A program made the translations under genes and the position numbers. Positions 26,311-43,079 of a stretch of 64,000 bases of DNA are shown piece by piece; position 1 is the stretch's first letter; each line of letters opens with the position of its first letter. Location: IMG/VR virus record IMGVR_UViG_3300035157_000972. One strand, written 5' to 3'. The notes beneath the pieces were generated by a model. The model saw only the letters and a list, made by a program, of their open reading frames with translations, was not told where the DNA came from and did no database searches. Origin of the DNA: a virus.

Positions 26311-27210
26311 ATGGCAGACCATCTAACCACAGAATTACCAGATGACGACATGCTCAACTATAGAGAGGAATTCATTCTCTATGGTTTGAGGCAGTTAGGT
26401 CATCCTGTCGTGGAAGTCAATATTGCAGATGAGCAGATAGAAGAAGTGATGCAAGACACCATATCATTTTTTCAAAACAGACATATGGATGGTGTGGAGA
26501 AAGTATATCTAAAACATAAAGTTCCAGAAAACTTTATCAAAAGGGTAGGTGGAAGAGCAGATGACAATACTATAGGTATCAAAACCACCACATCAAATCA
26601 ATACAGTAGAGGTGGAGATATTGTTGGTTTGAGCACGACTGCTTTCGATTCATTTGAAGAGGATCAAAATTTTATTGTTATACCTGATGCTGTTATTGGT
26701 ATAGAGAAAGTTTGGAAATTAGACAACCGTGCTATCAGCACTAACATGTTTAGTGTCAACTATCAATTATTTTTGAACGAGATATACTATTTCAGTAGTA
26801 CTGAAGTATTGAATTATTCTATGACAAAAAGATATCTTGAGGATCTTGATTTTATATTACATCCAGATAAACAAATAAGATATAACAGAAGACGAAATCG
26901 ATTATATATTGATACTGATAAAGGTAGTTTACAAGAAGATGATTATTTGATCATTCAATGCTATAGGGCAATTCATCCCAACGAAGTTGGTAATAGAATA
27001 TATGGAGATATATTCTTTAGGAGATACTTTACTGCTTTGCTAAAACGTCAGTGGGGACAAAACCTCATGAAGTTTCAAGGTGTAAAAATGCCGGGTGGTA
27101 TGGAACTAAATGGTAGACAAATATGGGAGGATGGTACAGCAGAACTAGAGAAGTTGGAGTCTCGTATGAATATGGATTACGAATTACCTCCACTTGATTT
27201 TATTGGATAA
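26311..27210 (+). CDS. gp13: Neck protein gp13
   Basis: LRQLGHPVVEVN; KRQWGQNLMKFQGVKMPGG; ELPPLDFIG. Confidence 0.92.
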   Translation: MADHLTTELPDDDMLNYREEFILYGLRQLGHPVVEVNIADEQIEEVMQDTISFFQNRHMDGVEKVYLKHKVPENFIKRVGGRADDNTIGIKTTTSNQYSRGGDIVGLSTTAFDSFEEDQNFIVIPDAVIGIEKVWKLDNRAISTNMFSVNYQLFLNEIYYFSSTEVLNYSMTKRYLEDLDFILHPDKQIRYNRRRNRLYIDTDKGSLQEDDYLIIQCYRAIHPNEVGNRIYGDIFFRRYFTALLKRQWGQNLMKFQGVKMPGGMELNGRQIWEDGTAELEKLESRMNMDYELPPLDFIG

Positions 27211-28616
27211 TGGCACTCAATAATTATTTTAGAGCAACAGGAGCAAGGAATGAACAGGATCTTGCTCAGTCCTTAGTGGATGAACATATCAAAATGCATG
27301 GCATAGAGTTTGTCTATATGCCACGTTCTTTTGTGAATATAAAAACTGTCATGAGAGAAGTGACCTCATCAAAGTTTGAGAAGTCATTTCCTCTTGAAGG
27401 GTATATCGAGAACTATGAAGGATTTGGTGATCAATATAATCTATTAACAAAATTTGGAGTTAGATCTACAGCAGAAATGCAAATCACTATATCTCAAGCA
27501 AGATTTGGTGAACTAATTACTCCTGTTTTGAGAAGAGAAGGTGGACTTGGAATTGATACTCCTGTAAGACCACTAGAAGGGGATCTAATATACTTCCCAC
27601 TTGGGGACATAATATTTGAAATCAAACATGTAAAACATACTGCACCAACGTTCTATGCTTTAGGTAAGAACTATTGCTATGTTTTAGAATGTGAGATGTT
27701 TGAACTTGGTGATGAGAAAATTGAAACAGGTATTGGTGAGATTGATAATGATTTTGCTACATTAGGATATAATGTCACAATGACAGTATCAGGTGTTGGT
27801 ACAACTGCAACTGCACAGACATCATTGGTGAATGGTGGTATTCATAAAATCAAGATATTCAATGAGGGAACAGGATTCACAGCAGATCCCACAGTTCTCA
27901 TATCTAAACCTAATGGCACTGGTAGAAGAGCAACAGCAGTTGCTATTACCACTGCAAATGCACAAGGTTCTAGATCACTGCAAGAGTTTAGACTTACAGA
28001 TCCCGGTTTTGGATATACCACTGCTCCAAGTATTTCAATCACACCAGTTGACGGTCAAGGTGGAGGAGTGTCACTAGGAGTTGGTATTGCAACAACTGGT
28101 GCAGTTGGAATTATTACAGTTACATCGAAAGGATCTGACTATGTTGTTCCTCCTACAGTTACATTTACAGCAGCACCTTCAGGTGGTGTAACTGCTATAG
28201 GAACTGCCATACTTGTGAACGGTCAGGTGGATAGAATTATCACAACAAATGCAGGATATGGTTATACAGTAGCACCTACTGTCACTGTTGGTGCAGCAGG
28301 CACAGTTGGGGTGGGAACCTTCAAGTATGGAATGATTCTAACTGGTAAGACATCTTCAACAACTGCATATGCTACAAGTTGGGATGCTACAAATGGCACA
28401 CTTACTGCTAAAGACCTCACAGGTAAATTCTCAATCGGTGAATTGATTGTGGGAACAGCGAAGACGACAGGTGAGACTATCGCATATCGTCTAAATAGCA
28501 TCGACTACAATGATGATGAGACAAATGTCGATTCATATGCAGACAATGTTAGCTTCCAATCAGAAGGTGACGCTATCCTTGATTTTACAGAGAAAAACCC
28601 ATTTGGTGAAGCATAA
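27210..28616 (+). CDS. gp14: Neck protein gp14
   Basis: EQDL.QSLVDEHIKMHG, RPLEGDLIYFPL, DFTEKNPFG; synteny. Confidence 0.9.
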   Translation: MALNNYFRATGARNEQDLAQSLVDEHIKMHGIEFVYMPRSFVNIKTVMREVTSSKFEKSFPLEGYIENYEGFGDQYNLLTKFGVRSTAEMQITISQARFGELITPVLRREGGLGIDTPVRPLEGDLIYFPLGDIIFEIKHVKHTAPTFYALGKNYCYVLECEMFELGDEKIETGIGEIDNDFATLGYNVTMTVSGVGTTATAQTSLVNGGIHKIKIFNEGTGFTADPTVLISKPNGTGRRATAVAITTANAQGSRSLQEFRLTDPGFGYTTAPSISITPVDGQGGGVSLGVGIATTGAVGIITVTSKGSDYVVPPTVTFTAAPSGGVTAIGTAILVNGQVDRIITTNAGYGYTVAPTVTVGAAGTVGVGTFKYGMILTGKTSSTTAYATSWDATNGTLTAKDLTGKFSIGELIVGTAKTTGETIAYRLNSIDYNDDETNVDSYADNVSFQSEGDAILDFTEKNPFGEA

Positions 28617-29665
28617 TGTTTGGAAAGTATTTTTACAATGAGACAATAAGAAAGACTGTAATCGCTTTCGGAACTCTCTTCAATGACATCACGATAAAGC
28701 ATACAAATGATGCCACTGATGCAGTAATATCAACAATCAAGGTTCCTATTGCATATGGACCTATGCAGAAGTTCTTAGCAAGAATTGAACAACAACCAAA
28801 CTTCAACAAGAATGTAGCAATAACTTTACCAAGATTATCATTTGAGATAACTGCATATCAATACGACCCAACAAGAAAGATTGCACCTATAACAAAATTT
28901 TGTTTAGTTCCTAATAGTAGTAAAAATAAAATCAAAAAGGTCTTTATGCCTGTGCCCTATAATATAGGATTCAGACTTAGTTTTGCGACAAAATTGCAAG
29001 ATGACGCTTTGCAGATCTTAGAGCAAATATTACCATTCTTTCAACCATCATATAATGTTACATTGAACATGATAGAGGGTCATGATGAGAAAAGAGATAT
29101 ACCATTTACATTGAGTGATATATCATTCAAAGATGAATATGAGGATGATTTCAATACAAGGAGAGCGATTGTATATGATTTAGAATTTATGGCAAAGACA
29201 TATTTCTACAACGAGATTCCTACAGACGAAACTGGTGGAATTATCAAGAAGGTTCAGATCGATTACTCATCTGCTATCAGAGCACCAAGAGAGGTCAGAT
29301 ACGTTGTCACACCTACTGCTACGAAAGATTATAATCAAGACTCAACCCTCTCTCTTGCTGCAACATTGGAAGTTGGTAAGACTCTAATGACGGTAACGAG
29401 TGGTGCAAGTTTAGTTGTCGGACAATACATTCAAATCAACAATGAAGTTATGAGAGTTGAGGAGAAAGATAATGTCTCGATCATAGTTGCTAGAGGTCAA
29501 TATAGAACCAAAGAAATGAAGCATAGTAATGGTGATGTTATAAATCTTATTAACGCTGCCGATCATGCATTGATCGAAGTCGGTGATGATTTTGGATTCA
29601 ATAGTGATATTGACTTCTTCCAAGATTCTAAATTCTTTAGTCCTAGTCAGGGCACTGACCAATAA
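28616..29665 (+). CDS. gp15: Tail sheath stabiliser / terminator gp15
   Basis: YFYNETIRKTVIAFGTLFN, VPIAYGP.QKFLAR, QILEQILPFFQP. Confidence 0.93.
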   Translation: MFGKYFYNETIRKTVIAFGTLFNDITIKHTNDATDAVISTIKVPIAYGPMQKFLARIEQQPNFNKNVAITLPRLSFEITAYQYDPTRKIAPITKFCLVPNSSKNKIKKVFMPVPYNIGFRLSFATKLQDDALQILEQILPFFQPSYNVTLNMIEGHDEKRDIPFTLSDISFKDEYEDDFNTRRAIVYDLEFMAKTYFYNEIPTDETGGIIKKVQIDYSSAIRAPREVRYVVTPTATKDYNQDSTLSLAATLEVGKTLMTVTSGASLVVGQYIQINNEVMRVEEKDNVSIIVARGQYRTKEMKHSNGDVINLINAADHALIEVGDDFGFNSDIDFFQDSKFFSPSQGTDQ

Positions 29666-30075
29666 TGGAAAACTTTGATGAGTTAGAAAAGGCAATGAAC
29701 GTAAAGACAGAAATAGTCAAGGAGACTAAATCTGTCAAAGTCAAACCTATTAAAAATGGGGAAGATGATCCTAAAAAAGATTACGAATATAGTAGAGCAC
29801 AATTATATAATCTAGTAGAGAAGGGTCAAGAGGCAATCAATGGTATATTGGATGTATGTCAAGACTCACAGCACCCAAGAGCATATGAAGTAGCAGGACA
29901 GTTGATCAAGAGTGTAGCAGATACCACTGACAAACTAATTGACTTGCAGAAAAAAATGGTTGACTTAGAACAACCAACTGGAAATGGTCCAAAGACTGTA
30001 AATAATTCAGTATTCATTGGTAGCACTGCAGATCTTCAAAAGATCATCAAGCAAGGAAATATAAATAAGAAATAG
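29665..30075 (+). CDS. gp16: Terminase small subunit gp16
   Basis: DYEYSRAQLYNLVEKGQEA, HPRAYEVAGQLIK, FIGSTADLQK. Confidence 0.93.
   Translation: MENFDELEKAMNVKTEIVKETKSVKVKPIKNGEDDPKKDYEYSRAQLYNLVEKGQEAINGILDVCQDSQHPRAYEVAGQLIKSVADTTDKLIDLQKKMVDLEQPTGNGPKTVNNSVFIGSTADLQKIIKQGNINKK
30060..30067 (+). promoter_or_regulatory. T4-type late promoter
   Basis: TATAAATA 21 nt upstream of ATG 30089. Confidence 0.7.
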
Positions 30076-30088
30076 TAATCGATACACG

Positions 30089-32446
30089 ATGACCAAATCT
30101 TGCCCGAAAGGACAATATTATTGCTACACTGATAAGAAGTGTAAAAAAATACCAAAAGGGTACATGATTGGTGCTCGCGGTTACTTGCGACAAGAACCAC
30201 AAGAGGATGATTCTAAAAAGAATGGTAATGGGAACGGTAACGGACACTCTAACTCAAATGGGAGTGGTCGGAATGGTAGTGGAAATGGTAACGGTAACTC
30301 TGGTGGTAATGGTGGTAGTGGTGGCGTGTCTGAAGCGACAATGACCTCATCTCAAAAGAGAAAGGACACAATGCTGAAGAAAAAATATGATGACTCTGAC
30401 ATGAAAAGGAACATGAAGAAACAGTATGGTAAGGAAGAAGGTGAAAAAGTTTATTATGCTACGATACGAAAACAAGCAATGGAATCTAATTTAGGAAAAC
30501 TTGATGAAGTAGGATACTATTCTGGACAAGATAGAGATCCCACTACTGGACTACCAAAGAAAATAAAAAGTCTTGGTGGAGGAAGAAAAGATACCCCATT
30601 GAAGGCGGTTCCGTATAGTATTCTTCGTGCTCATACTGAGATGCCTGTGACTGATATCAAAACCAGTAGCATGGATGAGTTAACAGACTATAGAACGTTT
30701 GTTCAGCAATCCATGGATGCGAAAAAAAGAGAAGCAGATAGGTACAAAGCAAAACAGAAGGCAGATAAAGATTGGTCAGCAAGAAAGAAGGAGAGAGTGC
30801 AGAAAGGTATAAAGTTCTATGATAAGAAGGGTAAAGGTTATATCAAAGGTGGAGTCAAGACATACGAAGAGAATGAAATAGAGGAGAGTGCATTTACAGA
30901 CTTCGCAAAAAAGTATGGTTTAGATCCAGTAAATGATTATTCAAAAATCAAGAGGATGATGAGATCTAATAATTTGAGAGGTATTAACAATAATCCTACA
31001 GGTATAAAAAATATTAATCAGGTTGAAAACGAATCTGTGCAGACAGAGGGGTCATTACATAAATGGTTCAAGGGATCTAAATCAAAAGATGGAAAAGGTG
31101 GATGGGTCAACGTAGTAACTGGTGGAACCTGTGCTAGTGATGAACCCGGAGAAGGTACACCTAAGTGTGTGTCATCTTCTAAGAGAGCAAGTATGTCTAA
31201 AGCAGAAAGATTATCTGCTGCTCGTCGTAAAAAGAAAGCAGACCCCGGTCAGCAGTCAAAAACTGGTGCTGCAAAACCAACTTACGTTTCAACTGACAAA
31301 CCTAAAAAGAATATGAAAGAAGAGAATCAAATTACTGAAGCAGACAAGAAGGGTAAAGGTAGTGGCACAAAAGATGCTTGCTATCATAAGGTCAAGTCAA
31401 GATATTCTGTATGGCCAAGTGCATATGCATCAGGTGCATTAGTCAAGTGTCGTAAGAAAGGTGCTGCTAACTGGGGTAACAGTAAGAAAGAAGAGTTTGA
31501 AGGCACTAAGAGTTACAGTGATTTCATGGATGAGGCAAAGAAATGTTGGAAAGGATATAAGAAAACAGGCACACAGAAACTATTCGGTAAGACATACAAT
31601 AGATGTGAGAAAGAAGAAACTCAGTTAGAAGATAGTAGATTGACAAGTTCTAATGACATGCAGAGTAAAATGTATGCTGATAAGAACAAGTCTGGTAAGA
31701 AGATGAGTGATGATGAGATCAAGAAAGAGAAGGGTGGAAAGGAGTTTCTTGCTAGACTCAAGGCAGCAAAGGAGAAGATGAAGAAAGAAGGAACATCTTA
31801 CGGTTTATACAAAGGAGATGGTAAACCCAAAGGTCCTATGGCAAAGTTTGGGGAGAAGAAAAAGAAAGAAAAAAAGATTGAAGAGAAGGTAAATCTAAAG
31901 GATAAGTCTTCTCAGTATGCTAGAAGTACAAAGGAAGTTGACACTGCAATGACAGATCATGTCAACAGAAAAAGAGGAACTCATTACGGTAAAGATGGTA
32001 AGGTCACAGAGATAGGTCGTTACCGCAGACCAAGTAAAAGAGAAGCAAGAAATGAATTGATCGCTATGAATAAAGAGTCAAAGTCATTTTCTCAGTTCAC
32101 TCAAGAATGTTGGAAGACTCACAAGAAAGTGGGTATGAAGATGAAAAATGGCAAACTTGTGAATGATTGTCGTCCTAAGAATGAAGAGGTAGCAGTTGAG
32201 GGAGCAGCATGGACAAAAAAGTCAGGAAAGAATAAAGAAGGTGGACTCAACGAAAAGGGAAGAAAGTCTTACGAAAGAGAAAATCCCGGATCTGACCTCA
32301 AAGCACCTACCAAAAAAGTTGGAAATCCTAGAAGAGCATCTTTCTGTGCTAGAATGAAGGGAATGAAAAAGAAGTTGACATCTAGCAAGACTGCCAACGA
32401 TCCAGATTCAAGAATAAATAAATCACTGCGAAAGTGGAACTGCTAA
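30089..32446 (+). CDS. Lys-rich modular hypothetical protein; candidate internal head polyprotein
   Basis: 785 aa; short basic and Cys-paired modules separated by Glu-ending linkers; N/G low-complexity tract at ~30221-30326. Confidence 0.75.
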   Translation: MTKSCPKGQYYCYTDKKCKKIPKGYMIGARGYLRQEPQEDDSKKNGNGNGNGHSNSNGSGRNGSGNGNGNSGGNGGSGGVSEATMTSSQKRKDTMLKKKYDDSDMKRNMKKQYGKEEGEKVYYATIRKQAMESNLGKLDEVGYYSGQDRDPTTGLPKKIKSLGGGRKDTPLKAVPYSILRAHTEMPVTDIKTSSMDELTDYRTFVQQSMDAKKREADRYKAKQKADKDWSARKKERVQKGIKFYDKKGKGYIKGGVKTYEENEIEESAFTDFAKKYGLDPVNDYSKIKRMMRSNNLRGINNNPTGIKNINQVENESVQTEGSLHKWFKGSKSKDGKGGWVNVVTGGTCASDEPGEGTPKCVSSSKRASMSKAERLSAARRKKKADPGQQSKTGAAKPTYVSTDKPKKNMKEENQITEADKKGKGSGTKDACYHKVKSRYSVWPSAYASGALVKCRKKGAANWGNSKKEEFEGTKSYSDFMDEAKKCWKGYKKTGTQKLFGKTYNRCEKEETQLEDSRLTSSNDMQSKMYADKNKSGKKMSDDEIKKEKGGKEFLARLKAAKEKMKKEGTSYGLYKGDGKPKGPMAKFGEKKKKEKKIEEKVNLKDKSSQYARSTKEVDTAMTDHVNRKRGTHYGKDGKVTEIGRYRRPSKREARNELIAMNKESKSFSQFTQECWKTHKKVGMKMKNGKLVNDCRPKNEEVAVEGAAWTKKSGKNKEGGLNEKGRKSYERENPGSDLKAPTKKVGNPRRASFCARMKGMKKKLTSSKTANDPDSRINKSLRKWNC

Positions 32447-32449
32447 TTT

Positions 32450-34108
32450 ATGCCCCAACAAAGTGACGTCTATCTTGGTAATCCGAATCTAAAAAAAGCG
32501 AACACTGAAATTCAGTTTACAGAAGATAATGTAAAAGAATTTCTAAAGTGTAAAGACGATCCAGTTTACTTTGCTAGAAAATATATCAAAATCGTAAACG
32601 TTGATGAGGGTCTTGTACCTTTTGAGATGTGGCCATTTCAAGAGAAGTTAATAAAAAACTTTCATAAAAATAGATTCAATATCTGTATGATGCCCCGTCA
32701 GACTGGTAAGTCAACGACGTCGGTGTCTTATTTGTTGCACTATGCTATATTCAATGACAATATAAACATCGGTATTCTTGCTAACAAGGCAGCAACTGCA
32801 AGAGATCTACTCGGTAGATTGCAGACTGCATACGAGAACTTACCGAAGTGGATGCAGCAAGGTATTGTTGCATGGAACAAAGGATCGATGGATCTAGACA
32901 ATGGTTCTAAGATCATGGCAGCATCTACATCTGCTGCTGCTGTTCGAGGTATGACCTTCAACATCATATTCTTGGACGAATTTGCTTTCGTACCAAATCA
33001 TATTGCAGACGACTTTTTTAGTTCAGTATATCCTACAATATCATCTGGTAAGTCAACAAAAATTATAATCGTATCTACCCCCAAGGGTATGAATCACTTC
33101 TACCGTATGTGGCATGACGCAGAGAAAGGTAGAAATGAGTATGTCCCGACTGAGGTTCACTGGTCAGAAGTTCCGGGCAGAGATGCAAAGTGGAAAGCAC
33201 AAACTATTGCCAATACAAGTGAACAACAGTTCAAGGTTGAGTTTGAGTGTGAATTCCTAGGATCTGTTGATACATTGATAGCACCATCCAAACTGAAAGC
33301 GATGGCATATAATGACCCAGTGCAGACAAACGGGCATCTGATGGTGTATGAGACGCCTGTGAAAGGAAGAGATTATATTATCACTGTAGACGTAGCAAGA
33401 GGCATTTCAAAGGACTATAGTGCCTTTGTGGTGTTTGACATCACAGAGTTTCCATATAGAGTGGTGGCAAAGTATAGAGATAATGAAATCAAACCTATGC
33501 TTTTCCCATCGGTGATTATGGATGTGGCACTAGCATATCAAGAAGCATTTGTTTTATGTGAAGTAAATGATATTGGTGATCAAGTGGCAAGTATATTACA
33601 GTATGACTTAGAGTATGAGAATGTATTGATGTGTGCTATGCGGGGTAGATCTGGTCAGATAGTCGGTACAGGTTTCAGTGGTAAGAAGACTCAATTGGGT
33701 GTGAAGATGAGTGTCACTGTAAAGAAGGTAGGTTGCAGTAACCTGAAAACACTGATTGAGGAAGATAAATTACAAATTTTAGATTATGATATAATATCAG
33801 AATTGACCACGTTTGTTCAGAAAAGACAATCCTTTGAGGCAGAAGAAGGTTGTAATGACGACCTTGCTATGTGTTTAGTAATCTTTGCATGGTTGGTAGC
33901 ACAGGAATACTTCAAGGAGATGACTGACAATGACGTCAGGAAAAGGATCTATGAAGAACAAAAGAATCAAATAGAACAAGACATGGCACCTTTCGGATTC
34001 ATGACAGATGGATTGAATGATGAAGAGAACGAGATTGTTGACTCATCAGGGGATGTCTGGAAAGTTGATGAGTATGGTGATCGTTCCTATATGTGGGATT
34101 ACCGATGA
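32450..34108 (+). CDS. gp17: Terminase large subunit gp17
   Basis: YLGNPNLKKAN, Walker A PRQTGKS, Walker B IIFLDEFAF, nuclease DDLAM. Confidence 0.97.
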   Translation: MPQQSDVYLGNPNLKKANTEIQFTEDNVKEFLKCKDDPVYFARKYIKIVNVDEGLVPFEMWPFQEKLIKNFHKNRFNICMMPRQTGKSTTSVSYLLHYAIFNDNINIGILANKAATARDLLGRLQTAYENLPKWMQQGIVAWNKGSMDLDNGSKIMAASTSAAAVRGMTFNIIFLDEFAFVPNHIADDFFSSVYPTISSGKSTKIIIVSTPKGMNHFYRMWHDAEKGRNEYVPTEVHWSEVPGRDAKWKAQTIANTSEQQFKVEFECEFLGSVDTLIAPSKLKAMAYNDPVQTNGHLMVYETPVKGRDYIITVDVARGISKDYSAFVVFDITEFPYRVVAKYRDNEIKPMLFPSVIMDVALAYQEAFVLCEVNDIGDQVASILQYDLEYENVLMCAMRGRSGQIVGTGFSGKKTQLGVKMSVTVKKVGCSNLKTLIEEDKLQILDYDIISELTTFVQKRQSFEAEEGCNDDLAMCLVIFAWLVAQEYFKEMTDNDVRKRIYEEQKNQIEQDMAPFGFMTDGLNDEENEIVDSSGDVWKVDEYGDRSYMWDYR

Positions 34109-34206
34109 TTGTATGGTCAATTATATGGATGGTCTTCATACTATGTGTCTGTGTTGGCATTGTAATCTGGTGGATTATGACCTATGACAGTAGGAATGGA
34201 ATTTGA
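34105..34206 (+). CDS. 33-aa single-TM membrane peptide (not in ORF track)
   Basis: MIVWSIIWMVFILCVCVGIVIWWIMTYDSRNGI; ATGA overlap with gp17 stop. Confidence 0.55.
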   Translation: MIVWSIIWMVFILCVCVGIVIWWIMTYDSRNGI

Positions 34207-34414
34207 AGATACCTTTTCACTAGATCATCTGGTATTTACAGAAAGGAAATGTAGAACCTGTGGTATCACTAAAGATTTGTTGAGTGGTTTTTACAGAACA
34301 AGAAATAAAAGAACCACACCTTCTGCATATTCTTATGAGTGTAAGGAGTGTACAAAGATAAGAGTCAAGTCAAAAAGAAGAAAGAATAAACCTGAATTAT
34401 ATCCTGATTGGTAG
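34196..34414 (+). CDS. Small zinc-finger protein (CxxC...CxxC)
   Basis: RKCRTCG..K.L...FY...SAYSYECKEC, ends YPDW; usual cyanophage gene between gp17 and gp18. Confidence 0.7.
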   Translation: MEFEDTFSLDHLVFTERKCRTCGITKDLLSGFYRTRNKRTTPSAYSYECKECTKIRVKSKRRKNKPELYPDW

Positions 34415-39068: not shown

Positions 39069-39076
39069 TATAAATA
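39069..39076 (+). promoter_or_regulatory. T4-type late promoter
   Basis: TATAAATA upstream of ATG 39100. Confidence 0.7.
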
Positions 39077-39099: not shown

Positions 39100-39336
39100 A
39101 TGGAATCAGCAGAATTAGTTGATATGATGATCGATGGTGCTTCACCATCTGAGATGCAAGACGCTGTTAAAGATCTTTTGATCGTAAAAGCAGCAGACAA
39201 AGTTGATGAGTTCAAACCCTCAGTTGCTAATTCTCTATTTGGTGCATCAGAACAAGAGGAAGTACCAGAGACTGAATCTGAACTTGAAACTGAAACTGAA
39301 ACCGAAATTTCACAAGAAACACAAGAAGAAGAATGA
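39100..39336 (+). CDS. Small acidic prohead core protein (gp67-like position)
   Basis: Glu-rich C-terminus with ETE repeats; between gp20 and gp21. Confidence 0.6.
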   Translation: MESAELVDMMIDGASPSEMQDAVKDLLIVKAADKVDEFKPSVANSLFGASEQEEVPETESELETETETEISQETQEEE

Positions 39337-39896
39337 CTCAACCATTAAAACAGGTGACAGACCTCGGTATCTTGAGTAGTGCAAACGCTACAGCAGTTAC
39401 TGGTGATTCATTTATTGTGAAGACAGGACTATTACATGGTTCTGCTACTGCTGCAAAAGGCGGTGGATTGGTTGGGGTATGTAATACAACTACATCAGCA
39501 GTTGGTGTATCTTCAATTCATGTGAATAAACAGGATGATAAGATACTAAGATATACACACCCTGCTTCCGCAACTATCGTAGCGATCACAAAAGGTAATC
39601 CATCAGTTCTGCAAGTTAGCAGTAGAGATACGAAAATTGTAGAGGGTGATTTTGTCACGCTAACTGGATCTTCAGTTGGTGGATACAACACTACTATCAA
39701 GCATGTACCTGTTACTGCTGTTACTGGTGGTACTCTAAAGAATGATTATAAAACTACAATTACAGTCACTGCCAACACAGGATCATTAGCGGACTTTACA
39801 GGAACTGCAACTCTAGCAAAATCAGTTATCCCTATATTGAAACCCTCTTCTGCAAGTGGGTGTGAGTTATACATTAATGAGGTACAACTAGGATGA
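39333..39896 (+). CDS. Hypothetical virion protein
   Basis: ATGA-coupled on both sides inside the head operon; T/V/G-rich. Confidence 0.65.
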   Translation: MTQPLKQVTDLGILSSANATAVTGDSFIVKTGLLHGSATAAKGGGLVGVCNTTTSAVGVSSIHVNKQDDKILRYTHPASATIVAITKGNPSVLQVSSRDTKIVEGDFVTLTGSSVGGYNTTIKHVPVTAVTGGTLKNDYKTTITVTANTGSLADFTGTATLAKSVIPILKPSSASGCELYINEVQLG

Positions 39897-40540
39897 AACT
39901 TATAGCAGAAGAAATCGAATCAGTTGAAATTGTAACTGAAGAGAAGAACGGTAAGAAGAATTTATACATCACGGGTCCATTTCTGCAAGCAGAGGTGGTA
40001 AATCGTAATAAACGATTCTACCCACTAGAGACAATGGTCAATGAAGTGAATCGATATAACTCATCATTCACTGATAAGGGTCGTGCTCTAGGAGAGTTGG
40101 GTCATCCAGATGGTCCATCTATAAACTTAGATCGAGTATCACATAAGATTGTTTCTCTTACTCAAGAGGGAAATAACTTTATTGGTAAGGCACAGATCTT
40201 ATCAACACCCATGGGAAAAATCGCGGAATCTCTTCTCTCTGAAGGAGTGAAACTCGGAGTTTCCAGTCGTGGTATGGGTTCTATCAAGAACGTTGATGGT
40301 GTAAACCACGTCGGTGAAGACTTCATGCTTGCCACTGCTGCTGACATAGTAGCAGACCCTTCTGCCCCCGATGCTTTCGTAGATGGCATCATGGAAGGCA
40401 AGGAATGGGTATGGGAAGGAAACGTTTTGCGTGAAATGAAATGCAACGAGGTTAAGAAGTCTATAAATAACTTGGTAGATCAAGAAATCCTAGAGGCAAA
40501 CAAGTTGCGTCTCTTCGCGGACTTCTTATCTAACTTATAA
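39893..40540 (+). CDS. gp21: Prohead protease gp21
   Basis: RALGELGHPDGP, GVSSRGMGS, DIVADPSAPDAFV. Confidence 0.97.
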   Translation: MKLIAEEIESVEIVTEEKNGKKNLYITGPFLQAEVVNRNKRFYPLETMVNEVNRYNSSFTDKGRALGELGHPDGPSINLDRVSHKIVSLTQEGNNFIGKAQILSTPMGKIAESLLSEGVKLGVSSRGMGSIKNVDGVNHVGEDFMLATAADIVADPSAPDAFVDGIMEGKEWVWEGNVLREMKCNEVKKSINNLVDQEILEANKLRLFADFLSNL

Positions 40541-40580: not shown

Positions 40581-41642
40581 ATGGCTGAAGAAAAAACACT
40601 ACATGAGATGGAAAATCAGGTAACGAAAGGTGCTAAGTCTGCCGATCCAATGCCAAAGGCACCAAACTACGTCCCAGACGCAGGTGCAGTTGAGGATCTC
40701 GGCGGTCCTACTCCTCAAAACTCCAAGTCTACAGACAACTCTAACAAGTTGAAGACTCCATCTGCTAAGTTCGCTCAACAGGGCGATCCACAAACAAAAG
40801 GAACTGCAGGTACAGTTCAACAAGATGGTCCTCTCGGTCCAGTTGGCATGAAGTCAAGTGGATATGGCAATGGTGCCAACGAAGAGGTTGAGACTGAGGA
40901 AGAGGTAGAAAATGTTATACAGGAAGAGGAGATCGATCTTTCACAAGACGTTCAAGCACTTCTTGAAGGTGAAGAACTCTCTGAAGAGTTCAAAGATAAA
41001 GCAACTACCGTTTTCGAGGCAGTTGTAAAATCAAGAATCGCCGAAGCAAAAGAGGCGATGGAAACTCAGTACGATAAGAACCTTATCGAAGAAGTTGAAT
41101 CTATCAAGAAAGAACTTACTGAGAGAATAGATTCGTACCTAGAGTACGTATGTAATGAATGGTTCACTGAGAACTCATTACAGTTAGAATCAGGAATCAG
41201 AGGAGAACTCTCTGAGTCCTTCATGACAGGTCTCAAGAACCTTTTTGAAGAGCATTATGTAAACATCCCTGATGAGAAATATGATGTACTTGAGGCAATG
41301 GTCGAAAAATTAGATGATATGGAGACTAAACTCAATGAACAGATTGAAAGCAATGTTTCACTAACGAAGCGTTTAGCAACATCTGTTTCCGACAACATCC
41401 TAGATGAAGTCTGTGAAGGTCTTGCATTATCTCAAAAAGAGAAGATAGCAAGTTTAGCAGAAGGCGTTGAGTTTGAAAGTGAAGTACAATATCGTGAAAA
41501 ATTGTCTACTCTTAGAGAGACATATTTCGCTCCTAAGAAACCAGAGGCAAGTTCACAAGAAGTTATCTCTGAAGAGGCACCAGTAGAGGAACATTCCCCT
41601 GCTATGGAGTCATACATTCAGGCACTAACTAAGTACCAGTAA
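40581..41642 (+). CDS. gp22: Prohead core scaffold gp22
   Basis: ELSEEFKDKATTVFEA, YLEYV..EW, GLKNLFEEHY; acidic coiled coil. Confidence 0.93.
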   Translation: MAEEKTLHEMENQVTKGAKSADPMPKAPNYVPDAGAVEDLGGPTPQNSKSTDNSNKLKTPSAKFAQQGDPQTKGTAGTVQQDGPLGPVGMKSSGYGNGANEEVETEEEVENVIQEEEIDLSQDVQALLEGEELSEEFKDKATTVFEAVVKSRIAEAKEAMETQYDKNLIEEVESIKKELTERIDSYLEYVCNEWFTENSLQLESGIRGELSESFMTGLKNLFEEHYVNIPDEKYDVLEAMVEKLDDMETKLNEQIESNVSLTKRLATSVSDNILDEVCEGLALSQKEKIASLAEGVEFESEVQYREKLSTLRETYFAPKKPEASSQEVISEEAPVEEHSPAMESYIQALTKYQ

Positions 41643-41663: not shown

Positions 41664-43079
41664 ATGTTTAATTCTTCTCAATTACAGAAGAAGTGGCAAC
41701 CTCTTCTAGAGGCAGAAGGTATTGATAAGATATCTGATAGTCATAGAAAAGCGGTTACAGCACAACTTCTAGAAAACCAAGAAAGATTTTTAAGAGAGGA
41801 ACGTGCATTCCTAACAGAAGCACCTCCTACAACATCACTAGGAAACGGTGGAGGAACAGCATCAGCTCCTGCATTTGGTGGCGACGCTGCCGATGCCGGT
41901 CCAGTTGCAGGTTTCGACCCAGTTCTAATCTCATTGATTAGAAGAGCAATGCCTAACTTGGTGGCATACGACCTAGCAGGCGTTCAACCAATGAACGGAC
42001 CTACAGGTTTGATCTTCGCAATGAGAACACGTTACGACAACCAGTCTGGAACAGAAGCATTCTTCAACGAACCAGATTCAGCGTTCTCTGCTCAAGATGA
42101 TAATGCATCACTAACACAAGGTGACTATGCACTAAACACAACTGACGGTGGAACAGACGTTGGTTTCGGTACAACTGCACAAGGTGGTACAAACCCATCC
42201 ATTCTAAATGGTGGTTCTGCTAACGCTTACTCAGTTGGACAAGGTTTCGACGCTCAGTCACTTGAATCTCTAGGAGATGCAGCAGGTAATGACTTCAGAG
42301 AGATGTCATTCAGCATCGAGAAGGTTACTGTGGCAGCAAGATCCAGAGCACTAAAGGCAGAGTACAGTTTAGAACTTGCTCAAGACTTGAAGGCAATCCA
42401 CGGTCTAGATGCAGAAGCAGAATTAGCAAACATTCTCTCAACAGAGATACTTGCTGAGATCAACAGAGAAATCATCAGAACAATCTACAAGGTTGCAAGA
42501 CCCGGTGCACAAACCAACACTGCAACAGGTGGTATCTTCGACTTAGACGTTGACTCTAACGGAAGATGGATGGTTGAGAAATTCAAGGGAATGATGTTCC
42601 AACTTGAAAGAGATGCAAACGCAATCGCACAGGAAACTCGTAGAGGAAAGGGTAACATTATCCTATGTTCTGCTGACGTTGCTTCTGCACTTGCTGCTGC
42701 AGGTCAACTAGACTACACTCCTGCTCTAAACGCTAACTTAACAGTTGACGACACAGGTAACACATTCGCAGGTACATTGAACGGAAGATTCAAGGTATAC
42801 ATCGATCCATTCGCTGCTAACCTATCTGCTGATCAGTACTACGTTATGGGTTACAAAGGTTCTTCACCTTATGACGCAGGATTATTCTACTGCCCATACG
42901 TTCCACTACAGATGGTTCGTGCAGTTGGACAAGACACCTTCCAGCCAAAAATTGGATTCAAGACCAGATATGGTATGGTTTCCAACCCATTCGCTGAAGG
43001 TACAACTCAAGGTCTTGGAAGAATCACTGCTGGTTCTAACCGTTACTACAGAAGAGTTAAGGTTCAAAACCTTATGTAA
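41664..43079 (+). CDS. gp23: Major capsid protein gp23
   Basis: AGFDPVLISLIRRAMPNL, GVQPMNGPTGLIFAMR, SRALKAEYS.ELAQDLKAIHGLDAE, YCPYVPLQM; FLTE/A cleavage-type site. Confidence 0.99.
   Translation: MFNSSQLQKKWQPLLEAEGIDKISDSHRKAVTAQLLENQERFLREERAFLTEAPPTTSLGNGGGTASAPAFGGDAADAGPVAGFDPVLISLIRRAMPNLVAYDLAGVQPMNGPTGLIFAMRTRYDNQSGTEAFFNEPDSAFSAQDDNASLTQGDYALNTTDGGTDVGFGTTAQGGTNPSILNGGSANAYSVGQGFDAQSLESLGDAAGNDFREMSFSIEKVTVAARSRALKAEYSLELAQDLKAIHGLDAEAELANILSTEILAEINREIIRTIYKVARPGAQTNTATGGIFDLDVDSNGRWMVEKFKGMMFQLERDANAIAQETRRGKGNIILCSADVASALAAAGQLDYTPALNANLTVDDTGNTFAGTLNGRFKVYIDPFAANLSADQYYVMGYKGSSPYDAGLFYCPYVPLQMVRAVGQDTFQPKIGFKTRYGMVSNPFAEGTTQGLGRITAGSNRYYRRVKVQNLM

What the first reader, a model, noticed from the sequence alone, without database searches (positions are those of the whole stretch)
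30060..32446. Candidate capsid-packaged polyprotein: basic mini-domains separated by gp21-type cleavage sites, with internal T4 capsid-targeting-like motifs
Seen: late promoter, then 785 aa made of short Lys-rich modules (CPKGQYYC..KKC; GSLHKWF..WV..C..PKC; DACYHKVK..WPSAYASG..VKC; CWKGY..RC; CWKTH..DC; AAWTKKSGKN..GGLN..RRASFCARM) each preceded by a Glu-ending linker (VSE/A, LDE/V, IEE/S, QTE/G, ITE/A, MDE/A, IEE/K, TQE/C, AVE/G). Two linkers, KSYSDFMDE (31508-31534) and KSFSQFTQE (32081-32107), closely mimic the T4 internal-protein capsid targeting sequence MKTYQEFIAE. Established: T4 gp21 cleaves after Glu in hydrophobic-X-E sites and that leader directs internal proteins into the head; gp23 here has FLTE/A. 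Inference: one gene delivers a cocktail of about ten small basic peptides that are released in the prohead and condense DNA or are ejected into the host as anti-defence/host-takeover effectors; module content should vary between phages.
Basis: partly seen in the sequence, partly recalled or inferred. Interest (0 to 1): 0.8.

Follow-up and report, generated by a model that had tools for sequence, protein, structure and literature searches.

The report
Cyanophage head-protein precursor, protease-cut beads
This marine T4-like cyanophage gene most likely encodes a chain of about a dozen small, positively charged mini-proteins that is loaded into the phage head and cut apart by the head protease, a polyprotein version of phage T4's internal proteins; the cutting itself has not been shown.

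Summary
ORF 30089-32446 (785 aa, pI 9.8) lies between terminase genes gp16 and gp17 of a T4-like cyanomyovirus. It belongs to T4-GC119 / PHROG 727 and 3477, with a C-terminal DUF6321.

In this protein alone, hydrophobic-x-Glu is not enriched (11 against 8.1 expected). Across 386 relatives it is. The Glu just upstream of nine unrelated modules has L/I/V/M/F at P3 in 77% of contexts, against 23% for other Glu. Homology breakpoints fall on these sites.

The two T4-CTS-like motifs recur in relatives before six different modules. They sit at the N-terminus of short family members (MKTFNQFQAE|CWKTH, MIDYKEFKRLSE).

One anchor is independent. The cyanophage cytidylyltransferase GC190, repeatedly found in virion proteomes, starts MK(S/K)FxxF(L/F)xE|A, like T4's MKTYQEFIAE|A.

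Family members were detected in S-SM1 and S-CREM2 virions, but not in Syn9.

Best reading (about 0.65): a capsid-targeted polyprotein processed by gp21. It would be a new variant of T4 internal proteins. Cleavage, packaging of this protein and what the peptides do are inferred.

The scan raised the same idea on at least eight other cyanophage windows. I found no paper describing it.

The parts
30060..30067 (+). TATAAATA, a T4-type late-promoter-like box 29 nt upstream of the ATG, inside the end of gp16
   Evidence: 5 in the window against 5.3 expected; kept at -29 in 12 of 15 relatives.
30089..32446 (+). 785-aa Lys-rich modular ORF (P0001), T4-GC119 / PHROG 727 and 3477 family
30089..30334 (+). 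Module A (CPKGQYYC..C beta-ribbon, always N-terminal in the family) plus an Asn/Gly spacer ending VSE82|A
   Evidence: 104 instances, all N-terminal. (pLDDT 73-86 for residues 1-35)..
30335..30886 (+). Helical modules B and C (residues 83-266) with candidate sites LDE140|V, MDE197|L and IEE266|S
30887..31048 (+). Variable, indel-rich linker (residues 267-320) ending VQTE320|G
   Evidence: 182 homology starts cluster at residue 320.
31049..31321 (+). Module D (GSLHKWF..GGWVNV..C..PKC..KRASM..), nearly invariant across the family, ending MKE411
31340..31498 (+). Module E (ADKKGKGSG..DACYHKVK..WPSAYASG..VKC), weakly DUF5872-like, preceded by ITE417|A
   Evidence: E=0.01, below cut-off..
31508..31534 (+). 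CTS-like motif 1, KSYSDFMDE482|A, a predicted helix
   Evidence: (helix 476-484).
31535..31630 (+). CW module 1 (CWKGY..C, beta-hairpin)
   Evidence: strands 491-507.
31631..32080 (+). Modules G, I and J (SSNDMQSK..; GTSYGLYKGDGK..; KVNLKDKSS..) with boundary Glu at E514, E567 and E599
32081..32107 (+). CTS-like motif 2, KSFSQFTQE673|C
32108..32200 (+). CW module 2 (CWKTH..C, beta-hairpin) and a linker ending AVE704|G
   Evidence: strands 678-696.
32201..32443 (+). C-terminal DUF6321 module (GAAWTKKSGKN..RRASFCARM..WNC), the constant last module of the family
   Evidence: 6.8e-22. (208 of 266 proteins end W[NK]C)..
29665..30075 (+). gp16, terminase small subunit (upstream flank)
32450..34108 (+). 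gp17, terminase large subunit (downstream flank)
39893..40540 (+). gp21, prohead serine protease (Peptidase_S77), the proposed processing enzyme
40581..41642 (+). gp22, scaffolding core protein, the proposed docking partner of CTS-like helices
   Evidence: docking is inferred from T4.
41808..41819 (+). FLTE52|A in gp23, at the position of the T4 maturation cut; this phage's own reference site

Best explanation
The gene encodes a late-expressed precursor built as beads on a string. An N-terminal Cys-ribbon module and a C-terminal DUF6321 module are the usual ends in the family. Between them lies a variable set of small basic mini-domains.

Inferred steps:
- During prohead assembly the precursor enters the gp22 scaffold core. 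Entry would be helped by its two internal amphipathic helices that copy the T4 capsid targeting sequence, and perhaps by charge.
- The prohead protease gp21 (Peptidase_S77) then cuts after Glu in hydrophobic-x-Glu sites at the module boundaries.
- About 13 basic peptides of 3.6-9.6 kDa (pI 9-10.5) are released. They stay with the packaged DNA and are probably ejected with it.

Shown: the motifs, their family-wide conservation at module boundaries, the presence of the protease, and virion detection of homologues. Inferred: targeting, cleavage, retention and ejection. What each peptide does is unknown.
For: (1) The Glu nearest upstream of nine unrelated modules has LIVMF at P3 in 414 of 539 distinct contexts. 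Other Glu residues have it in 1074 of 4736. The upstream neighbours differ widely.

(2) BLAST breakpoints against 385 relatives cluster at E320, E412, E514 and E140.

(3) The logo matches gp21's published L/I-X-E motif (PMC9026906) and this phage's gp23 site FLTE|A. gp21 is present.

(4) CTS-like K[ST][YF]xxF[ILVMT]xE gives 31 hits against 0.1 in shuffles, before six module types.

(5) N-terminal leaders on short relatives resemble T4 MKTYQEFIAE|A. Examples are MKTFNQFQAE|CWKTH, MKTFEQFTE|GSLHKWF, MKSLNTFIQE|G and MIDYKEFKRLSE. The conserved positions 4 and 7 are the ones needed for targeting in T4.

(6) The virion enzyme GC190 starts MK(S/K)FxxF(L/F)xE|A in eight phages. It was detected in the virion proteomes of S-SM1, S-CREM2 and S-SCSM1. 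Those papers also cite NMNAT-like proteins in S-CBWM1 and S-SZBM1 virions.

(7) The strict N-terminal pattern is absent from 1,204 other Met-starts in 132 kb of cyanophage DNA.

(8) GC119 was found in S-SM1 virions (13 peptide counts). S-CREM2 ORF137 was found in virions (4 peptides).

(9) Two podovirus DUF6321 proteins, from phages with no gp21 gene annotated in the stretches I looked at, lack any h-x-E leader.

(10) In the AlphaFold model, 11 of 13 predicted sites lie in low-confidence linkers and CTS-like motif 1 is helical.
Against: - No cleavage product or N-terminus has been observed for any family member.
- This protein's own N-terminus (MTKSCPKG..) is not a CTS. Internal CTS function is untested even in T4.
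- 148 of 266 family proteins lack a CTS-like motif by my regex, and about 80% of the motifs sit before CW modules.
- Some stand-alone module D proteins begin ME|GS or MNE|GN, so that Glu may belong to the domain itself.
- The Syn9 homologue was not detected in virions, and peptide counts in the two positive proteomes are low.
- Some sites here are non-canonical (QTE, TQE, QLE, KKE, AVE).
- The motif count in this protein alone is not significant.
- The sequences are related, so the P value is inflated.
Confidence: 0.65

Rival explanations
1. It is an uncleaved, largely disordered, multi-domain basic protein that binds DNA or RNA. It might be a nucleoid or packaging accessory protein encoded between the terminase genes. 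The conserved hydrophobic-x-Glu would then be an N-terminal capping element of each mini-domain.
For: Mean pLDDT is 53 with small folded islands. The net charge is +83. The gene lies between gp16 and gp17 in more than 15 loci. The Glu persists in stand-alone module D proteins that start ME|GS.
Against: Nine modules with unrelated sequence share the same P3-P1 pattern in unrelated upstream contexts. A fold-specific cap does not explain that. The leaders resemble T4's cleaved propeptide.
Confidence: 0.15
2. It is a scaffold-like core component. It is targeted to the prohead and cut by gp21, but most fragments leave the head as T4 gp22 fragments do. Its role would be in head assembly rather than in delivery of peptides.
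For: It uses the same motifs as the best explanation. Spectral counts and coverage in virions are low (13 counts in S-SM1; 4 peptides and 4.1% coverage in S-CREM2). The Syn9 homologue was not detected.
Against: The fragments are basic, whereas T4 core fragments that leave the head are mostly acidic (my own knowledge). Lys-rich peptides give few tryptic peptides long enough to detect, so low counts are expected anyway. Variable module content suits cargo better than scaffold.
Confidence: 0.1
3. It is an intracellular late protein that is not specifically packaged, and its detection in virion preparations is carry-over. The modules would act in the infected cell, and the boundaries would reflect recombination joints between mobile mini-genes.
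For: The authors of PMC10665884 and PMC9602691 themselves caution that abundant late proteins may co-purify with virions. In P-SSM3 and P-SSM4 the modules occur as separate small genes elsewhere in the genome. Podoviruses carry DUF6321 alone.
Against: The family was detected in two independent proteomes. The motif is conserved at the amino-acid level with varied residues at P2, which does not look like a nucleotide recombination joint. The CTS-like leader is shared with GC190, which is repeatedly found in virions.
Confidence: 0.1

Closest known systems
T4 internal proteins IPI, IPII, IPIII and Alt, with their capsid targeting sequence
   Same: Small basic proteins of a T4-like phage. The leader is of the type MK(T/S)(Y/F)xxF(I/L)xE, followed by a cut after Glu by the S77 prohead protease. 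The repertoire varies between related phages.
   Different: There is no sequence homology to T4 IPs. Here many units are fused into one 785-aa precursor. The CTS-like elements are internal, and every unit boundary carries a candidate cleavage site. Packaging and cleavage are not shown.
T4 core proteins gp22, gp67 and gp68, which gp21 cuts into several fragments
   Same: One polypeptide with several L/I-x-E sites, processed inside the prohead (PMC9026906).
   Different: Those are scaffold components and mostly leave the head. This protein is basic, modular and hypervariable in content.
Head and inner-body proteins of phiKZ, 201phi2-1 and SPN3US, processed at several x-x-Glu sites
   Same: The protease is a gp21 relative and cuts after Glu with few other determinants. 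Propeptides carry redundant sites, and the cargo is ejected with the DNA (PMC9026906).
   Different: Those are giant phages with the motif S/A-x-E and large folded proteins. None is a string of mini-domains of 3-10 kDa.
T4-GC119 'structural protein' of Sullivan et al. 2010; PHROG 727 and 3477; Pfam DUF6321
   Same: This protein is a member. It gives strong PHROG and Pfam matches and has the same locus after gp16.
   Different: Published annotation says only 'hypothetical' or 'structural protein'. I found no description of it as a polyprotein or of a CTS.

Membership tests
T4-GC119 / PHROG 727 and 3477 / DUF6321-containing cyanophage proteins | Significant match to the family profiles | tested here: met
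   phrog_727 1.9e-124, phrog_3477 5.2e-113 and PF19846 6.8e-22, above its cut-off. S-SM2 SSM2_109 and S-B43 AYR01718 are annotated as GC119.
T4-GC119 / PHROG 727 and 3477 / DUF6321-containing cyanophage proteins | Locus in the hyperplastic region between gp16 and gp17 | tested here: met
   The order gp15-gp16-X-gp17 holds in the window and in more than 15 IMG/VR loci, and in S-SM1, S-SM2 and S-CREM2.
T4-type capsid-targeted, gp21-processed internal head proteins | The phage encodes an S77 prohead protease and a gp22 scaffold | tested here: met
   Peptidase_S77 at 39893-40540 and T4_CASP at 40581-41642.
T4-type capsid-targeted, gp21-processed internal head proteins | N-terminal CTS propeptide of about 10 residues | tested here: not met
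   The N-terminus is MTKSCPKGQYYC. CTS-like motifs are internal (residues 474-482 and 665-673). Short relatives do have N-terminal ones.
T4-type capsid-targeted, gp21-processed internal head proteins | Hydrophobic-x-Glu cleavage motif at the start of the mature part | tested here: met
   The motif is present at the module boundaries and enriched across the family. Its presence does not show that it is cut.
T4-type capsid-targeted, gp21-processed internal head proteins | Actual cleavage by gp21 | not testable with these tools
   This needs mass spectrometry or an in vitro assay.
T4-type capsid-targeted, gp21-processed internal head proteins | Presence in the mature virion | not testable with these tools
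   Literature only. Homologues are in the S-SM1 (13 counts) and S-CREM2 (4 peptides) virion proteomes and were not detected in Syn9.
T4-type capsid-targeted, gp21-processed internal head proteins | Small basic mature products | tested here: met
   The predicted fragments are 3.6-9.6 kDa with pI 9.1-10.5.
T4-type capsid-targeted, gp21-processed internal head proteins | Sequence homology to T4 IPI, IPII, IPIII or Alt | tested here: not met
   There is no Pfam or PHROG hit to internal-protein families, and Foldseek against the PDB finds nothing.

The most novel reading that the evidence does not exclude
Marine T4-like cyanophages use a T4-type capsid targeting code, MK(S/T)(F/Y)xxF(L/I)xE followed by a cut, to load a variable cargo into the head. 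The cargo would include an NMNAT-like enzyme (GC190) and, uniquely, a combinatorial polyprotein. gp21 would cut that polyprotein into a phage-specific cocktail of a dozen basic peptides, which are ejected with the DNA and act on the host, for example against defence systems or on the nucleoid or RNA.
Probability: 0.3. Interest if true: 0.85.

Novelty: new variant of a known kind. Interest (0 to 1): 0.7.

Why it matters
T4-like cyanomyoviruses are among the most abundant viruses in the sea, yet no internal head proteins or capsid-targeting signals have been described for them. This gene family has thousands of metagenomic members (more than 7,400 in one search) and is still annotated as hypothetical.

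If the reading is right, it would give three things:
- A sequence rule that predicts which cyanophage proteins are packaged. It would explain why an NMNAT-like enzyme keeps turning up in virion proteomes.
- A possible case of a protease-processed polyprotein of interchangeable mini-proteins in a tailed dsDNA phage; I found no description of one.
- A ready list of candidate ejected effectors for Prochlorococcus and Synechococcus infection.

All of this can be tested with one semi-specific mass-spectrometry experiment on purified virions.

Tried and rejected
- Pfam on single modules found only a sub-threshold DUF5872 hint for module E.
- The full-length AlphaFold2 model had a mean pLDDT of 53. 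It was useful only for telling islands from linkers.
- Foldseek against the PDB found nothing with E<=0.001.
- The ESM Atlas returned only viral clusters of unknown function, plus fusions to DUF192, DUF5661 and Pterin_4a.
- I ran no further search on module D, because its homologues are 80-95% identical and would add little signal.
- The late-promoter count is not above chance.
- The P-SCSP1u cryo-EM paper says nothing about the small DUF6321 gene.
- The supplements of the S-CREM2 and S-SCSM1 papers hold no peptide-level data.
- I first thought the CTS-like helix was just the N-terminal helix of the CW module. I softened that view because the helix also precedes five other module types and occurs at N-termini.
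- A RiPP-type multi-core precursor was considered and rejected: the modules are 30-90 aa and the window holds no maturation enzymes of that kind.
- I stopped a whole-genome scan of S-SM1 for CTS-like N-termini after 68 kb, because the control was already clean.
Full report
WHAT IS THERE

The window is part of a T4-like cyanomyovirus (Kyanoviridae-type). The gene order is gp13/14-like neck, gp15, gp16, X, gp17, endonuclease VII-like ORF, gp18, gp19, gp20, DUF7243 ORF, gp21, gp22, gp23. X is ORF 30089-32446 on the + strand. It is 785 aa, 87.9 kDa, pI 9.8, 18% Lys, net charge +83, with 13 Cys. Relatives conserve the start (M[TA]KSCPKGQYYC).

TATAAATA lies at 30060-30067, 29 nt before the ATG, and is kept there in 12 of 15 close relatives. 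The window holds 5 such boxes against 5.3 expected, and this one lies inside the gp16 coding sequence. The late promoter is therefore plausible, not demonstrated.

FAMILY

Pfam sees only DUF6321 at residues 713-783. PHROGs 727 and 3477, among others, match strongly, and all are of unknown function. Cultured-phage homologues are annotated T4-GC119. One database search found more than 7,400 relatives, and 5,907 cluster representatives at 50% identity match.

The locus gp15-gp16-X-gp17 is conserved in more than 15 IMG/VR contigs and in S-SM1, S-SM2 and S-CREM2. At its smallest the gene is 103 aa, a leader plus DUF6321, in the same place.

Alignments show nearly invariant mini-domains separated by indel-rich linkers. 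I counted 76 different module orders in 266 proteins.

The AlphaFold2 model (mean pLDDT 53) shows small folded islands in a disordered chain:
- beta-ribbon, residues 1-35
- helices, 102-132, 201-239 and 266-300
- module E helices, 427-457
- two CW beta-hairpins
- DUF6321 helices

Foldseek against the PDB found nothing.

ARE THE GLU MOTIFS MORE THAN CHANCE?

In this protein alone they are not: 11 [LIVMF]-x-E against 8.1 expected (P=0.17). Across the family they are.

I anchored on nine sequence-unrelated modules in 386 proteins and took the nearest upstream Glu. L/I/V/M/F is at P3 in 414 of 539 distinct contexts (77%), against 1074 of 4736 (23%) for all other Glu residues (odds ratio 11). The sequences are related, so the P value is inflated. 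Still, the upstream neighbours are plainly unrelated: an Asn/Gly spacer, other modules, and N-terminal leaders.

The logo, P3 V/I/L/M/F, P2 E/S/D/T/N, P1 E, matches the published gp21 motif L/I-X-E (PMC9026906). It also matches this phage's own gp23 site FLTE52|A.

BLAST breakpoints between P0001 and 385 relatives cluster at these sites: 182 starts at E320, and ends at 412, 514 and 140. In the model, 11 of 13 predicted sites lie in low-confidence linkers.

THE CAPSID-TARGETING RESEMBLANCE

T4 IPII and IPIII begin MKTYQEFIAE|A; I checked this on NC_000866. In T4, residues 4 and 7 are needed for targeting and residues 8 and 10 for processing (PMC9026906). KSYSDFMDE|A and KSFSQFTQE|C align position for position with residues 2-10.

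In the family, the strict pattern K[ST][YF]xxF[ILVMT]xE occurs 31 times against 0.1 in shuffles. It precedes CW, SSNDMQ, DUF6321, GSLHKWF and A modules and one further module that I did not name. A looser pattern occurs 168 times against 10. About 80% of these sit before CW modules, and 56% of the proteins have none.

Short family members carry such leaders at their N-termini:
- MKTFNQFQAE|CWKTHKK
- MKTFEQFTE|GSLHKWF
- MKSLNTFIQE|GSSKSCPQG
- MKTFAEFRE|G
- MIDYKEFKRLSE|S..ILDE|AAAW, from the abundant 103-aa form, which was seen on 691 contigs

AN INDEPENDENT ANCHOR

While building a control set I found the same leader on the cyanophage cytidylyltransferase / NMNAT-like protein T4-GC190. It starts MKKFSAFLKE|A in P-SSM3, MKSFFQFLSE|A in S-SM2, MKSFSQFLTE|T in P-SSM2, MKKFSAFLTE|A in S-RIM2, (V)KSFGQFLTE|A in S-SSM7 and MKKFSAFLNE|A in S-SM1.

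GC190 was detected in S-SM1 virions (PMC3037559). Its homologues were detected in the S-CREM2 and S-SCSM1 virion proteomes (PMC10665884 and PMC9602691). Those papers also cite NMNAT-like proteins in S-CBWM1 and S-SZBM1 virions. Their authors could not say why an enzyme should be in virions.

The strict N-terminal pattern is absent from 1,204 other Met-starts in 132 kb of cyanophage DNA. In my control of 251 N-termini it picked out only T4 IPII and IPIII, GC190, and a small ORF next to the GC119 gene of S-B43. A T4-type targeting leader thus seems to exist in cyanomyoviruses and to go with virion residence.

EXPERIMENTAL HINTS FOR THE FAMILY ITSELF

Table S8 of Sullivan et al. 2010 lists GC119 as a structural protein of S-SM1 (13 peptide counts), absent from S-PM2, and present but undetected in Syn9. 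The S-SM1 protein (SSM1_115, 495 aa) has VLE|G..SLRDWF, IQE|GEKDACYHKVK, LSFQDFQE|KAMKCWKGY and a terminal DUF6321.

S-CREM2 ORF137 lies between terS and terL and has a C-terminal DUF6321. It is in that phage's virion proteome with 4 unique peptides and 4.1% coverage.

Two podovirus DUF6321 proteins, HTVC034P gp25 and P-SCSP1b_00018, start directly with the domain and have no hydrophobic-x-Glu leader. The second lies next to the major capsid gene. No gp21-type protease gene is annotated in the stretches I fetched from either phage. That is what the cleavage model predicts, but it rests on two cases.

MOST LIKELY MECHANISM

Confidence is about 0.65. The proposed sequence is:
- late expression;
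- entry into the gp22 core, through the internal CTS-like helices and perhaps through charge;
- cuts by gp21 after the boundary Glu residues;
- release of about 13 basic peptides of 3.6-9.6 kDa, which remain with the DNA and are probably ejected with it.

The motifs, their conservation, the protease gene and virion detection of homologues are shown. Targeting, cleavage, retention and function are inferred.

Weak points:
- This protein has no N-terminal CTS.
- Several of its sites are non-canonical (QTE, TQE, QLE, KKE, AVE).
- Some stand-alone module D proteins start ME|GS, so that Glu may be part of the domain.
- Virion peptide counts are low.
- Syn9 was negative.

The rivals are an uncleaved nucleic-acid-binding protein, a scaffold-like component whose fragments leave the head, and an unpackaged late protein. 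They are listed separately with their tests.

COMPARISON AND NOVELTY

It works like T4's internal proteins and Alt (CTS plus a gp21 cut), and like the multiply cleaved head proteins of phiKZ-type phages. It is not homologous to any of them.

The fusion of many interchangeable units into one precursor, with a cleavage motif at every joint and internal CTS-like elements, would be a new variant. Full-text searches found no description of it, nor of a CTS in cyanophages. The library is incomplete, so that absence is weak evidence.

This scan raised the same idea on at least eight other cyanophage windows, and one follow-up supported it. I treated those notes as leads and tested the claim independently here.

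Noticed in passing
L002:1425-2573, L033:301-1527, L034:61-1335, L035:61-1218, L037:61-1347, L040:10257-11420, L021:909: The cyanophage cytidylyltransferase / NMNAT-like protein T4-GC190 is repeatedly found in virion proteomes. It has a conserved N-terminal leader MK(S/K)FxxF(L/F)xE|A that closely matches the T4 capsid targeting sequence. This would explain its packaging, and the papers I read do not mention it.
   Followed up: partly
L003:5280-5597 (S-B43, gene after the GC119 'structural protein'): A 105-aa ORF starts MKSFQDFLQE|S. It carries a '..YPGAIVQQIYV..' module that also appears fused upstream of DUF6321 in other family members and in S-CREM2 ORF137. It is another candidate capsid-targeted unit.
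   Followed up: no
L026:2417-2671 (Prochlorococcus podovirus P-SCSP1b) and L025:2426-2677 (pelagiphage HTVC034P): Stand-alone DUF6321 proteins of 84-85 aa occur in podoviruses without any leader. In P-SCSP1b the gene sits between the major capsid and tail tubular genes, which hints at a virion-associated role there too.
   Followed up: partly
Proteins P0058-P0063, P0109, P0119, P0275, P0276, P0282, P0322, P0358; Atlas rows: Family members carry extra domains between the mini-modules: DUF192 (PF02643), DUF3008, DUF5661 and a pterin-4a-carbinolamine dehydratase. The string can therefore also carry larger folded cargo.
   Followed up: no
window 34184-34414 (+): A 76-aa Cys-rich ORF between gp17 and gp18 matches the endonuclease VII PHROG (phrog_4723, 3.9e-32). 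It is conserved at this spot in relatives.
   Followed up: no
window 39333-39896 (+): A 187-aa DUF7243 ORF lies between portal gp20 and protease gp21, where T4 has the core proteins gp67 and gp68. A TATAAATA box lies at 39069.
   Followed up: no
window 27210-28616 (+): The gp14-type neck protein is extended to 468 aa. Its Gly/Thr/Ala-rich C-terminal half matches repeat regions of large virion and fibre PHROGs (for example phrog_701 and phrog_5342).
   Followed up: no
L027:3999-4535 (S-SM1 SSM1_114, GC403): The gene between gp16 and the GC119 gene in S-SM1 encodes a 178-aa protein with 60 peptide counts in the virion proteome, far more than GC119. The terminase-flanked hyperplastic region therefore holds several virion proteins.
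   Followed up: no
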